A stretch of DNA of 41,027 nt from a virus. Its lineage: Duplodnaviria > Caudoviricetes. The DNA is taken from positions 1-41,027 of the IMG/VR virus record IMGVR_UViG_3300043414_000515, one strand, 5' to 3'. The position numbers and the translations under genes are program-made. How positions within the stretch are numbered: position 1 is the stretch's first letter; every line of letters starts with the position of its first letter. The notes under the pieces are model-generated. The model ran no database searches. It was not told the DNA's origin and saw nothing but the letters and a program-made list of their open reading frames with translations. Below are positions 34,138-39,029 of the stretch, piece after piece.

Positions 34138-34313
34138 ACCGCTATGACATTGAACGCATTGCCTACCGCAGTGGCCTTCTTTCTTTAGATGACAGCCTGG
34201 CTCGCAGAACTGCTTTCTTGACCACTTTTGAGACTAATCTGAAACGGGAAATTGAAGACGAAAAGGACGATGAAATACGCCGCCAAGATCGTTTTGATAG
34301 CTGGGAAGATTGA
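34134..34313 (+). CDS. Small protein, 59 aa (not in ORF track)
   Basis: MNRYDIERIAYRSGLL; ATGA/TGATG coupling. Confidence 0.55.
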   Translation: MNRYDIERIAYRSGLLSLDDSLARRTAFLTTFETNLKREIEDEKDDEIRRQDRFDSWED

Positions 34314-34939
34314 TGCACTACTACCAGTTCAACATCGGTGACTACATGAGTCACACACGCAATTTGAGCCTGTTGGAAGACCTTGCCTATCGGCGTTTAT
34401 TGGATGAATACTACCTTCACGAACAGCCGTTGAACAGCGGTATAACGTCCGTTGCACGGCAGATAGGCATGCGTGAACATGAGGACATTGTTCAGTACAT
34501 TCTGGAGTCTTTTTTTATGCTGAAAGAAGATGGAAGTGGCTGGACAAATGCCCGTTGTGATCGTGAAATCGATCAATATAGAGCGCGTCTCTCCAATGCA
34601 AGCAAGGCGGGTAAGGCATCTGCTGAACGCCGGTCTAACGCCCGTTCAACACCCGTGCAACTAAACAAGAAACAAGAAACAAGAAATAACAATAGGGTCG
34701 AAGCACCTGACGGTGTGTCTCCAAAGGTGTGGGAGTCCTTTGTTAATGCAAGAAAAGCCAAGAAAGCACCCATCACTGAATTGGTCATTGCTGACATCAA
34801 GAAACAGGCAGCATTGGCTGGTTGGACGTTGGATGCCGCTTTGACCGAAACCGTTATCAGGGGCTGGAGAAGCTTTAAGGCCGAATGGGTGACCAAGGCT
34901 GCACCTGTGACCGGCAACAGACTGGCGGGTGCGATATGA
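34313..34939 (+). CDS. DUF1376 (YdaU-like) replication initiator
   Basis: MHYYQFNIGDY..HTRNLSLLEDLAYRRLLDEYY...RCDREI. Confidence 0.85.
   Translation: MHYYQFNIGDYMSHTRNLSLLEDLAYRRLLDEYYLHEQPLNSGITSVARQIGMREHEDIVQYILESFFMLKEDGSGWTNARCDREIDQYRARLSNASKAGKASAERRSNARSTPVQLNKKQETRNNNRVEAPDGVSPKVWESFVNARKAKKAPITELVIADIKKQAALAGWTLDAALTETVIRGWRSFKAEWVTKAAPVTGNRLAGAI
34626..34690. other. Putative replication origin (iterons plus A-rich repeats) inside the initiator gene
   Basis: AACGCCGGTCT/AACGCCCGTTC/AACACCCGTGC tandem, then AAACAAG x3. Confidence 0.55.
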
Positions 34940-35229
34940 AGGGCCATGATGGAATCATCAAGATGCGTATGCAAGGCTACAAGCCGTCTGCGATATGGCT
35001 CCTTGACTACCCCTGTTCAACAGCATGGGAAGAGTTCCAAGACGATCCTGTGGTCTGTGTCCACAATGACAACTTGAATACACTTGATTTAAGATACACT
35101 GTGGGCCTAGATGTCCACATCAGCAGCTACAGCGTGGATCGGGCCAAGACGCTCTTGGATTTATGCATAAAGCACTCAGCAAGCAAAGTAATTGCCTGTT
35201 GTGATAATTGGATTGACTGGCATGGCTGA
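34936..35229 (+). CDS. Hypothetical protein
   Basis: Likely start MKGHDGII; ATGA overlap. Confidence 0.6.
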   Translation: MKGHDGIIKMRMQGYKPSAIWLLDYPCSTAWEEFQDDPVVCVHNDNLNTLDLRYTVGLDVHISSYSVDRAKTLLDLCIKHSASKVIACCDNWIDWHG

Positions 35230-36202
35230 AATACTGAGCGACACGATTGACTTCCGACTGTACCTACGGGAGACAGATGCAAAGACTAAGGTCAAAAAGG
35301 CATCCGACTACGTTGGGGTGATCAAAAGCCGACTACGGGAAAAGGTCAAACAGCATGTGACCTACTTGCCGTGGACGAAGACCAACGAGAACTTTGAGTT
35401 TCGCAAGGGTGAAGTAACCCTGTGGTCAGGACAGAACGGTCATGGTAAGTCCTTGATGACCTCCCAGGTGGCGCTGAGCCTCATTGGGCAGGGCGAGAAG
35501 GTATGTGTAGCCTCTTTTGAGATGAAACCCGCCACAACCCTACAGCGTATGGCCCGTATGTGGATTGGTTGTAATCCGTTCTCGGTTGAGTTTCAGGGGA
35601 ATGACGGGATAGATGCCCTTGACAGCCTGTATGACCAGTTTGGGGAGTGGACGACCGGCAGCATGTGGCTGTATGACCAAATGGGAACTGCTGATGCCGC
35701 CACTGTGATTGGCATGGTGCGTTATTGCGCCAAGGAACTGGGTATAACTCATGTTTTTGTGGATAACTTGGCTAAGTGCGTTAAGGGCGAGGATGACTAT
35801 AACGGGCAGAAACAGTTCGTAGATGAGTTGACATCGGTGGCACGGGATTACGACATCCATATCCACCTTGTCCACCACCTAAAAAAGCCAGCTAATGAGA
35901 ATGCCGTCCCTGACAAACATGACAACAAGGGATCGGGAGCCATTACCGACTTAGTGGACAACGTGATGCTGGTCTGGCGCAACAAGGTCAAAGAGGATGC
36001 TATCAAGGAACAGGGCGAGTTTGCCAAGCAGAACGGTGATCCTGACCATTATCTGTTGTGCCGTAAGCAGCGGAATTACGAAGGATCGGGAGAGGGTGAA
36101 CCGACTGTCCGACTGTGGTTCCATCGTGATGCCCAGCAGTACGTTGCAGAGCCGCATGACCGGCCTTTGTTCTTTCCGAACTATCCGCATGTGGCATCGT
36201 GA
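35222..36202 (+). CDS. SF4 (DnaB/T7 gp4-like) replicative helicase without primase domain
   Basis: GQNGHGKS, SFEM, VFVDNL, HLVHH, KGSGAITDLVDN, KQR. Confidence 0.9.
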   Translation: MAEILSDTIDFRLYLRETDAKTKVKKASDYVGVIKSRLREKVKQHVTYLPWTKTNENFEFRKGEVTLWSGQNGHGKSLMTSQVALSLIGQGEKVCVASFEMKPATTLQRMARMWIGCNPFSVEFQGNDGIDALDSLYDQFGEWTTGSMWLYDQMGTADAATVIGMVRYCAKELGITHVFVDNLAKCVKGEDDYNGQKQFVDELTSVARDYDIHIHLVHHLKKPANENAVPDKHDNKGSGAITDLVDNVMLVWRNKVKEDAIKEQGEFAKQNGDPDHYLLCRKQRNYEGSGEGEPTVRLWFHRDAQQYVAEPHDRPLFFPNYPHVAS

Positions 36203-37401: not shown

Positions 37402-37423
37402 AAAACTGTGATACAGTAACGCC

Positions 37424-37810
37424 GTTGTCGTGGAAGACAGCAGTTAAGCCGTTTATTGATGCAACTTGCCCAGAGGTAAGAACGCCAAAGGGTCTTCCAC
37501 CAGGTTGCATCACTAAGCGGCTTTTGCATTTCTACGGTGACCGTCAGGGCGCGTTAGCTGATGGTCTGCATGGACTGAACCCAAGAAACACCGTACACCG
37601 TTACACCCCGGATGTTGCGACTAGCGTTGGTTGACCGACTAGTAAAGGATTGAGTAACTCAGGTGGACAACTAGGCTCAGTCTCTAAGTGAATCAACCCG
37701 TCCAGCGCAGCTTGGATGTGTACATAAAATGGCATTTTTTAAGCATATTATTGGGACATGCATAGAATGTGTACATATTGGAGCAGGTAGATAAGCCCTC
37801 TTATCCACCC
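37424..37810 (+). ncRNA. Large multi-stem structured RNA/DNA element
   Basis: At least 7 helices, many with G-U pairs; extended -10 TGATACAGT at 37409-37417; loop-loop complementarity. Confidence 0.65.
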
Positions 37811-37821
37811 TAGGTAAACCT

Positions 37822-38190
37822 ATGACCATAATTTATAGAGACAAGCACCTGCTGAAACTGGCACAAGACCAGCTTTGTCTTTTGAAGGTCAAAAACTTTT
37901 GCCGGGGGGGGTCTTCTTCCACGGTAGCGTGTCATCACAATTCCGCTAGGTCTGGCAAGGGAATGGGCATCAAGGCCAGTGATGCCTACACCGTATGGGG
38001 GTGCTTCTCCTGCCACCAATGGCTGGATCAAGGATCGGCCTCCAAGGACGATAAGGAAGCAGCCTTCCAAGCAGCCCATTTGCTCCAGGTAGCAGAGTGG
38101 CATAAAATCGCCTCCAGTATCGCTGCCAGACCTTGGAAGGTGGAAGCAGCCCGAAACGTCCTCAATCACTTGGGAATCAATCATGGATAA
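37822..38190 (+). CDS. DUF1364/YbcO-like Zn-binding His-Me nuclease-like protein
   Basis: C..C...TVACHHN...GKGMGIKASD...GCFSCHQWLD. Confidence 0.75.
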   Translation: MTIIYRDKHLLKLAQDQLCLLKVKNFCRGGSSSTVACHHNSARSGKGMGIKASDAYTVWGCFSCHQWLDQGSASKDDKEAAFQAAHLLQVAEWHKIASSIAARPWKVEAARNVLNHLGINHG

Positions 38191-38542: not shown

Positions 38543-38611
38543 TCTGGCAAAAAGACACCGATTCCTGAAAACCTAAAAACAAGGTCTAAAACTTTTGAGG
38601 GGGGGGTCTCT

Positions 38612-38822
38612 TACATGTGTACACACATACACATACGCACACACACCCGCACCCGCATGCGTACACACGCACACACCTACGCGCACACCCACGCATACCC
38701 GTGCGCCTACGCATGCACCCACGCGCACCCACGCGCACACCTACGCGCACGCATGCGCTCACACACACACACACACGCTCACGCACCATGCACACGCACC
38801 ACACACACGCGCAATGCATGCG
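38612..38822. repeat. Alternating purine-pyrimidine (CA/CG-rich) low-complexity tract
   Basis: ACACACATACACATACGCACACACACCCGCAC..., preceded by G8 at 38599-38606. Confidence 0.9.
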
Positions 38823-39029
38823 AGACAAACCCACGCAGTCCCCGATAGCCCATAAAGACCCCTAGAACGGCCTGTAACGCTTTTTTTACCTGTAGTGCAT
38901 GGCAATGTAGCATCACACGCAGAAAACGGCTTAAAACGGCTCTAATCGCTCCGCACCATGCACAGACGTGCAGCCACCTACCCGGGCCGGGCATGCACAG
39001 ACGTGCCAGTGCCATATTGCACTGCACAA

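What the first reader, a model, noticed from the sequence alone, without database searches (positions are those of the whole stretch)
37424..38190. Large (~390 nt) multi-domain non-coding RNA directly upstream of a His-Me nuclease-like gene
Seen: in a gene-dense genome a 420-nt gap is almost fully paired. After the 5' module come TACGGTG/CACCGTA (37533-39/37589-95) enclosing ACCGTCAG/CTGATGGT, and ACTAG/CTAGT (37620-24/37639-43). The loop of the latter, GCGTTGGTTGA, can pair with TCAACC and CCAGCGC (37693-37708) as a pseudoknot. Then follow GATTGAGT/GCTCAGTC, ATGTGTACATA/TGTGTACATAT (37716-26/37768-78) and GGTAGATAAG/CTTATCCACC (37786-37809), ending 12 nt before the nuclease-like ATG. Frequent G-U pairs favour a + strand RNA. 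I cannot assign it to a known family. Inference: the best candidate for an undescribed system here, such as a ribozyme or large ncRNA, a late-gene regulator, a replication primer RNA or an RNP partner of the downstream protein.
Basis: partly seen in the sequence, partly recalled or inferred. Interest (0 to 1): 0.8.

Follow-up and report, generated by a model that had tools for sequence, protein, structure and literature searches.

The report
Four-pseudoknot phage replication-origin RNA
This gene-free gap holds a conserved 285-base element of an uncatalogued phage family, predicted to fold as an RNA with four pseudoknots behind a small on/off leader; it is not tied to the neighbouring nuclease gene but accompanies phages whose replication-starter protein lacks its DNA-binding half, so it likely helps start phage DNA copying.

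Summary
The gap is real and holds two separable modules: a ~105-nt leader (37424-37532) whose loop and bulge covary and which ends in a terminator, and a ~285-nt core (37540-37824). The core has 134 distinct full-length phage homologues and no Rfam hit. Its 54-pair model with four pseudoknots is 94% paired, 34 pairs changing on both sides. The RNP-with-YbcO idea fails: close relatives lack the core, and downstream genes vary widely. The core, or one of two other large RNAs in the same slot, lies beside 71 of 80 loci of a C-terminal-only replication initiator but only 5 of 51 full-length initiator loci (loci are related). Best reading (0.52, inferred): a ColE1-like, transcription-driven origin RNA. 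It is optional in phages like this one, which keeps a full initiator and helicase. Rivals are a translational switch, an ssDNA origin, an antiterminator or a trans-acting RNA. No function or transcript is shown. The scan noted like elements on other DNA (unchecked AI notes e1-10460806, e1-10017722, e1-9799808).

The parts
37409..37417 (+). Probable extended -10 promoter (TG-n-TACAGT) driving the leader; inferred
   Evidence: Read from the sequence; homologues have canonical -35/-10 hexamers at the same place. The consensus scan did not report this site.
37424..37441 (+). Leader 5' hairpin; GTGGAAG (37430-36) is the variable 'address'
   Evidence: 6-bp stem; alignment A3
37446..37532 (+). Leader long hairpin with bulge CTTCCAC (37494-500) complementary to the address, ending in a T-run (terminator-like)
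   Evidence: Arms 87% complementary; terminator-like hit; exact 6-mer complement in 59 of 63 leaders with 19 different 6-mers, versus 11 of 3524 cross-comparisons
37540..37824 (+). Core structured element, family A
   Evidence: 134 distinct full-length homologues; covariation
37542..37591 (+). 5' domain: P1 (37542-44/37551-53), P2 (37563-66/37573-76), pseudoknot PK0 (GGG 37547-49/CCC 37580-82), A-rich linker; modular, found in front of other 3' bodies
   Evidence: 100% paired; PK0 swaps to GAG/CUC (L163, L364) and UGACU/AGUCA (L343, L360), seen by eye; 65 other distinct extensions or variants
37592..37643 (+). P3 (loop ACACCC) and P4; the P4 loop 37629-34 forms PK1 with 37693-98
   Evidence: PK1 100% paired, 6 of 6 pairs with two-sided changes; top mutual-information pair
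37647..37683 (+). P5 with a guide loop: GGTGG (37662-66) and CTAG (37671-74)
   Evidence: PK2 99% paired, G-C to A-U in 7 of 45 rows; PK3 93% paired, A-U to U-A in 11 rows
37699..37784 (+). P6 and the length-variable P7
37786..37813 (+). P8 hairpin, which overlaps and competes with PK2 (CCACC 37805-09), followed by the PK3 strand (37810-13)
   Evidence: A guide match in 133 and an overlapping local hairpin in 129 of 134 elements
37820..37824 (+). Conserved 3' CTATG, followed in most homologues by an A-rich stretch; here also the YbcO start codon
   Evidence: Start codon at this place in 127 of 134 elements, often opening only a 3-14 codon ORF; column frequencies
37822..38190 (+). YbcO (DUF1364) putative nuclease; a variable neighbour, not part of the element
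   Evidence: PF07102; linkage fails
34310..36202 (+). Context: full-length DUF1376 initiator and DnaB-like helicase of this phage
   Evidence: Pfam and PHROGs

Best explanation
The core is a conserved four-pseudoknot element, likely an RNA, that likely acts as a transcription-driven origin of phage DNA replication, in the manner of ColE1 RNA II. Shown: conserved fold, one copy per genome, a promoter-leader-terminator in front, and co-occurrence with initiators lacking the N-terminal half. Inferred steps: (1) the leader's address pairing sets read-through of the terminator; (2) the read-through transcript folds, and its guide loop captures CCACC-CTAG, either in the RNA or in the displaced non-template DNA strand, in competition with hairpin P8; (3) this would hold a persistent RNA-DNA hybrid near the 3' CTATG/A-rich end, giving a primer or an open strand; (4) a host helicase would be loaded there, aided by the C-terminal-only initiator where present. 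In this phage, which keeps a full initiator and helicase, the element would be a second, optional origin.
For: A 120-aa protein matching only residues ~170-257 of phage initiator profiles, and normally the C-terminal part of 220-340-aa proteins, has family A, B, C or the 5' domain within 2.5 kb in 71 of 80 loci; 5 of 51 full-length-initiator loci do, within up to 6 kb. No locus among the 80 has two families. Seven of the 9 negatives are one clade whose one whole genome examined carries family A elsewhere, right after a cro-like gene; the other two are cut by contig ends. All 7 whole genomes with this protein that I scanned carry exactly one element, two of them (G034, G035) picked by the YbcO search. 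Three complete YbcO relatives with full DUF1376 initiators have none (G030, G031, G033). Five such phages have no DnaB, and G001 showed no other replication gene among the 41 ORFs scanned. G018, G025 and G026 carry the core or its 5' domain and showed no initiator, helicase, primase or polymerase among the ORFs scanned. RNA rather than DNA: G-U 187 versus A-C 11 in helices, and C(UNCG)G loops in 15 cases; DNA folding z -0.16 versus RNA -2.26. Precedent: ColE1 needs no initiator protein (PMC5043065, passages).
Against: No experiment and no transcript. The counted loci are related phages, the best 80 of 254 hits, and the B and C profiles were built from those same loci, so the contrast is inflated and other RNA families near full initiators could be missed. 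The window, G017 and G021 carry both the element and a DUF1376 initiator. G006 and G012 place it among virion genes (gene labels recalled from sequence) and encode HTH_36 proteins that may be initiators. 36 of 59 family A loci with long flanks lack the short initiator within 1.5 kb. No skew switch marks the site. A start codon at a fixed place fits translation control equally well. No antisense RNA I equivalent was seen, and there is no sequence homology to RNA II.
Confidence: 0.52

Rival explanations
1. A large cis-acting translational switch: PK2/PK3 versus P8 closes or opens the ribosome site in front of the conserved start codon, timing expression of whatever gene follows.
For: Start codon at a fixed place in 127 of 134 elements, varying among ATG, GTG and TTG; both competing pairings are conserved; several gene families use that codon in frame.
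Against: Often only a 3-14 codon ORF or no gene follows; some members have no start codon there or no Shine-Dalgarno; downstream genes share no function; it does not explain the link to short initiators.
Confidence: 0.16
2. A trans-acting RNA, ribozyme or RNA assembly released from the read-through transcript, with a role unrelated to neighbours (host-factor decoy, processing, multimer).
For: Four pseudoknots, invariant unpaired bases, free placement and own promoter; present or absent among close relatives.
Against: No match to any known ribozyme or large RNA family; does not predict one-per-genome exchange with families B and C beside short initiators.
Confidence: 0.11
3. The same origin role, but the fold forms on displaced single-stranded DNA (a priming or primosome-loading signal) rather than on RNA.
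For: Covariation cannot tell RNA from ssDNA; Weinberg 2017 raises this for plasmid motifs (PMC5737381, passage); the family A profile hits ColE1 between rop and the mob genes, E 0.003.
Against: UNCG loops and many G-U pairs; no DNA folding signal; the ColE1 match is not kept in plasmid relatives; a promoter, leader and terminator sit in front.
Confidence: 0.09
4. A put-like nascent RNA that makes RNA polymerase resist downstream terminators.
For: Usually near the start of an operon after a cro-like gene, same strand as downstream genes; HK022 put is a precedent (PMC9378689, abstract start only).
Against: In this phage only two genes follow on that strand; in other phages a new promoter follows at once; it lies behind, not before, the first terminator.
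Confidence: 0.09
5. RNP partner or guide of the YbcO nuclease.
For: Adjacent here and in 6 of the 16 closest YbcO loci, with the start codon shared.
Against: Absent from 74 of 80 YbcO loci at that slot; the slot holds other inserts in relatives; most copies have other neighbours.
Confidence: 0.02

Closest known systems
ColE1 RNA II pre-primer (PMC5043065 and PMC4555960, passages read)
   Same: Proposed working principle: a structured transcript replaces an origin-binding initiator; control sits at the 5' end. Both end in CTATG plus an A-rich run (ColE1 1187-1197), a weak likeness.
   Different: About 285 nt, not ~550; no profile match to the RNA II region; four covarying pseudoknots; control by a terminator leader, not an antisense RNA I; in tailed phages, often with a short initiator protein.
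ARRPOF, GEBRO and PAGEV motifs (PMC5737381, passage read; supplement unreadable)
   Same: Structured motifs of 223-349 nt linked to replication regions; ARRPOF lies in a region that replicates without the rep gene.
   Different: No Rfam hit to these or any family; those are plasmid-associated; this family was found only in phage records.
P4 seqA/CI RNA, C4 and IsrK immunity leaders (PMC4825925 and PMC2864571, passages read)
   Same: The leader has short complementary sites and a terminator ahead of replication functions.
   Different: No Rfam C4 or isrK hit; the complement lies in the terminator hairpin itself; no downstream seqC-like site was seen by eye.
HK022 put RNA (PMC9378689, abstract start only)
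   Same: Cis-acting structured transcript early in a lambdoid operon.
   Different: Far larger, single copy, placed behind a terminator, varied locations.
Large ornate RNAs GOLLD, ROOL, OLE (search listing only)
   Same: Large, pseudoknot-rich RNA of unknown role; GOLLD and ROOL are phage-linked (recalled).
   Different: No Rfam hit; half the size or less; tied to replication modules.

Membership tests
Any Rfam 15 family | Match to a covariance model at its gathering score | tested here: not met
   0 hits in the window; 3 weak chance hits; none in 5, 8 and 20 related loci apart from one tRNA
ColE1-type RNA-primed origin | Sequence homology to RNA II | tested here: not met
   Profiles A, B and C give no hit in the RNA II region; the one hit lies at 1553-1530; no plasmid homologue of the core
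ColE1-type RNA-primed origin | Replicon lacks an origin-binding initiator | tested here: inconclusive
   True for many carriers, false for the window, G017 and G021
ColE1-type RNA-primed origin | Persistent R-loop, RNase H cleavage, Pol I extension | not testable with these tools
   Needs biochemistry
ColE1-type RNA-primed origin | Antisense RNA I from the opposite strand | tested here: inconclusive
   One weak - strand promoter-like site at 37775, within chance; the leader's T-run is on the + strand only
P4 CI / C4 immunity leader | Covarying complementary sites upstream of a termination point | tested here: met
   59 of 63 leaders, 19 variants, cross-control 11 of 3524; terminator-like hit
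P4 CI / C4 immunity leader | Rfam C4 or isrK model match | tested here: not met
P4 CI / C4 immunity leader | Processed small RNA acting in trans to give immunity | not testable with these tools
   Needs experiments
Nuclease RNP (HEARO/omega-RNA-like) | Constant linkage of RNA and nuclease gene | tested here: not met
   6 of 80 YbcO loci carry the core at the slot; varied neighbours
tRNA / tmRNA | ARAGORN or Rfam detection | tested here: not met
HK022 put antiterminator | Suppresses downstream termination in cis | not testable with these tools
   Needs read-through assays
Fremin 2023 viral candidate structured RNAs (PMC10690425) | Present among their alignments | tested here: inconclusive
   Six motifs not found in the readable tables; the alignment archives could not be read

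The most novel reading that the evidence does not exclude
Tailed phages have a modular superfamily of RNA origins (shared 5' domain, exchangeable bodies A, B, C) in which a guide loop clamps the non-template DNA strand while a CACCC repeat in loop 3 engages the template strand, opening the duplex without an origin-binding protein; the initiator is cut down to a helicase-recruiting domain or lost, and an immunity-type leader licenses firing.
Probability: 0.25. Interest if true: 0.93.

Novelty: new variant of a known kind. Interest (0 to 1): 0.78.

Why it matters
Many complete uncultured phage genomes show no recognisable initiator, helicase or polymerase. If this element is their origin, it explains how they replicate, extends RNA-primed initiation from ColE1-type plasmids to tailed phages, and offers small testable replicons. 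Even if the origin reading fails, it is a large four-pseudoknot RNA family with a conserved two-state 3' end and no catalogue entry, well suited to probing and cryo-EM.

Tried and rejected
Cellular genomes: the pattern scan of GTDB gave 120 loci (48 of 64 parts scanned), none a homologue by profile; the host stays unknown. Expression: no RNA holder was listed; one run guessed to be RNA gave a 365-nt contig over 37515-37806, which shows neither transcription nor ends. ColE1 18-nt match: five plasmid relatives change or lose the G-run, and CCCTGA has a local partner, so I do not count it as homology; its label as oriT flank or ssiB is partly recalled (PMC3167613, PMC9282650, PMC5935869 passages did not map it). 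Short initiator structure: confident model (pLDDT 91), no Foldseek match, best VIA match SPP1 G39P helicase loader at Z 5.1, rmsd 2.8, 62 aligned, too weak to use; no PDB sequence match. A covariance model could not be built, so searches used sequence profiles. Group I, group II, hairpin, pistol, T-box, TPP and tRNA likenesses were judged by eye from recalled motifs and dropped. DnaA-box-like 9-mers occur in only some members. Four of the first pattern hits (L116, L149, L153, L174) were chance and dropped; L162/L373 carry an internal deletion. Literature searches found no description. The Fisher test is not used, since loci are related.

Full report
Observation. The gap runs from the stop of a 109-aa ORF (37401) to the ATG of a YbcO gene (37822). 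The + strand folds at z -5.0 and the - strand at -1.35. Rfam gives nothing at gathering level in the window and three chance hits in the gap; ARAGORN finds nothing.

Homologues. Of 80 YbcO loci, 6 carry the element at this slot and one elsewhere. L004 and L005 (88% identical protein) have a 9-nt gap; L001, L008 and L015 have other inserts. A named spring phage, MW202484, has it beside other genes. An 18-base pattern gave 119 viral loci from 52 of 64 parts of the collection; four were chance. A second pattern gave 120 more, 46 of them the same subtype and 65 distinct others. In all I hold 134 distinct full-length family A elements. The GTDB pattern scan gave only chance hits, so the host is unknown.

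Two modules. The leader (37424-37532) is replaced by other leader types or missing in many homologues. Its 5' 6-mer has an exact complement near the end of the long hairpin's insert in 59 of 63 leaders, with 19 different 6-mers, against 11 of 3524 cross-pairs. A T-run lies within 45 nt upstream of 118 of 134 cores. This resembles P4 seqA/CI control of replication genes (PMC4825925, passages) but matches no Rfam model.

Core structure. Mutual information over 83 sequences ranks PK1 first. On a 45-sequence alignment (45 of those 83, picked for diversity) my 54-pair model is 94.1% paired, with 34 pairs changing on both sides; shuffles give 78.8% and slid partners 29-44%. The four pseudoknots are PK0 (37547-49/37580-82), PK1 (37629-34/37693-98), PK2 (37662-66/37805-09) and PK3 (37671-74/37810-13). 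PK0 is invariant in that alignment, partly because the search pattern fixed nearby bases; its support is the GAG/CUC and UGACU/AGUCA swaps in sister subfamilies, seen by eye. PK2 competes with hairpin P8, and both are possible in 128 of 134 elements, which suggests two states. G-U pairs outnumber A-C 187 to 11, and UNCG loops vary as UUCG, UGCG and UCCG in 15 cases, favouring a + strand RNA. Against over-reading: the core's nested folding energy is barely better than shuffles (mean z -0.6 over 14 members).

The 3' end. A start codon lies at a fixed place in 127 of 134 elements. It opens YbcO here, a short initiator or other genes elsewhere, and often only a 3-14 codon ORF. ColE1's origin also reads CTATG then an A-run. 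Either reading fits; I cannot separate them.

Genomic link. Neighbours vary widely, but 23 of 59 loci with at least 1 kb on both sides have a 120-aa protein within 1.5 kb, 17 downstream and 6 upstream. It matches only the C-terminal part of initiator profiles and is normally the end of 220-340-aa proteins. Among the best 80 of 254 loci of this protein, 35 carry family A, 26 a second large element (B) and 9 a third (C), never two; one more has a divergent 5' domain, giving 71 of 80, versus 5 of 51 loci of the window's own full-length initiator. Seven negatives are one clade whose one genome examined has family A elsewhere; two are cut short. Seven of 7 whole genomes with the short protein carry exactly one element; three complete relatives with full initiators carry none. 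G026 joins an A-type 5' domain to a C-type body, and G005 has a C-like 5' domain on an A body, so A and C are related modules. B and C have no Rfam hit; their folds were not tested for covariation. Limits: the loci are related, the B and C profiles come from the test set, and flanks differ.

Counter-evidence. The window, G017 and G021 have both a DUF1376 initiator and the element. G006 and G012 carry it among virion genes and have HTH_36 proteins. Only selected ORFs of G006, G012, G015, G018, G025 and G026 were scanned (78 in all). GC skew shows no switch here. An 18-nt match to ColE1 outside RNA II is not conserved in plasmid relatives and is not used.

Mechanism. I favour a transcription-driven origin working like ColE1 RNA II, which opens its origin by a persistent hybrid and needs no plasmid initiator (PMC5043065, passages). 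The fold, the leader and the genomic link are shown; read-through control, strand capture, hybrid formation, priming and helicase loading are inferred. It is not a member of the ColE1 family by sequence. ARRPOF is the nearest catalogued analogue (PMC5737381, passage).

Novelty. Searches found no description. The alignment archives of PMC10690425 and the supplement of PMC5737381 could not be read, so a prior listing as an unnamed candidate is not excluded. I wrote down the origin idea; the look-up then showed that other agents of this scan had reached like readings on other DNA. Those notes are unchecked and are not counted as support; they gave me two papers to read.

Verdict. Real conserved structured element: about 0.97. 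Acts as RNA: about 0.85. Origin role as RNA: 0.52, or about 0.6 with the ssDNA form. Interest 0.78.

Noticed in passing
L324-L341, L342, L349, L380, L387, L395 (just upstream of the match); G002, G035, G037: Family B: a second ~230-nt structured element in the same slot, ending in YCACC plus an A-run; no Rfam hit.
   Followed up: partly
L370, L371, L376, L396, L398, L401; G026 36324-36184: Family C: a third element with G-rich internal and 3' repeats, sharing the 5' domain layout with family A.
   Followed up: partly
L417, L421, L429, L431, L442, L443, L493, L523: The A-type 5' domain in front of several further, different 3' bodies; tandem 5' domains in L439 and L447.
   Followed up: partly
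L001:2820-3000: A different 180-nt structured insert in the YbcO slot that keeps the last bases of the family A 3' end; similar hairpins occur in G034 and G037.
   Followed up: no
window 38618-38830: CA-rich tandem repeat of 10-18 nt units in the gap after DUF5856.
   Followed up: no
window 37885-37910 and 38581-38606: A 26-nt direct repeat (88% identical) with a G-run, one copy inside the YbcO gene and one just before the CA repeats.
   Followed up: no
L085, L090, L091, L145, L150, L156 downstream of the core: A sigma-70-like promoter followed by another conserved hairpin element ahead of a probable capsid gene (gene label recalled).
   Followed up: no
L089 and L195 upstream of the core: A tRNA-like T-arm sequence not called by ARAGORN.
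   Followed up: partly
L162 and L373: Internal deletion joining the 5' domain directly to the 3' CACCC end; natural or assembly artefact unknown.
   Followed up: no
L553:3413-3742 (G015) and L562:7662-8018 (G026): Other short ORFs resembling stand-alone initiator C-terminal domains next to the element; no Pfam hit.
   Followed up: partly
L582-L584: In these relatives the element plus YbcO lies upstream of, and opposite to, the full initiator.
   Followed up: no
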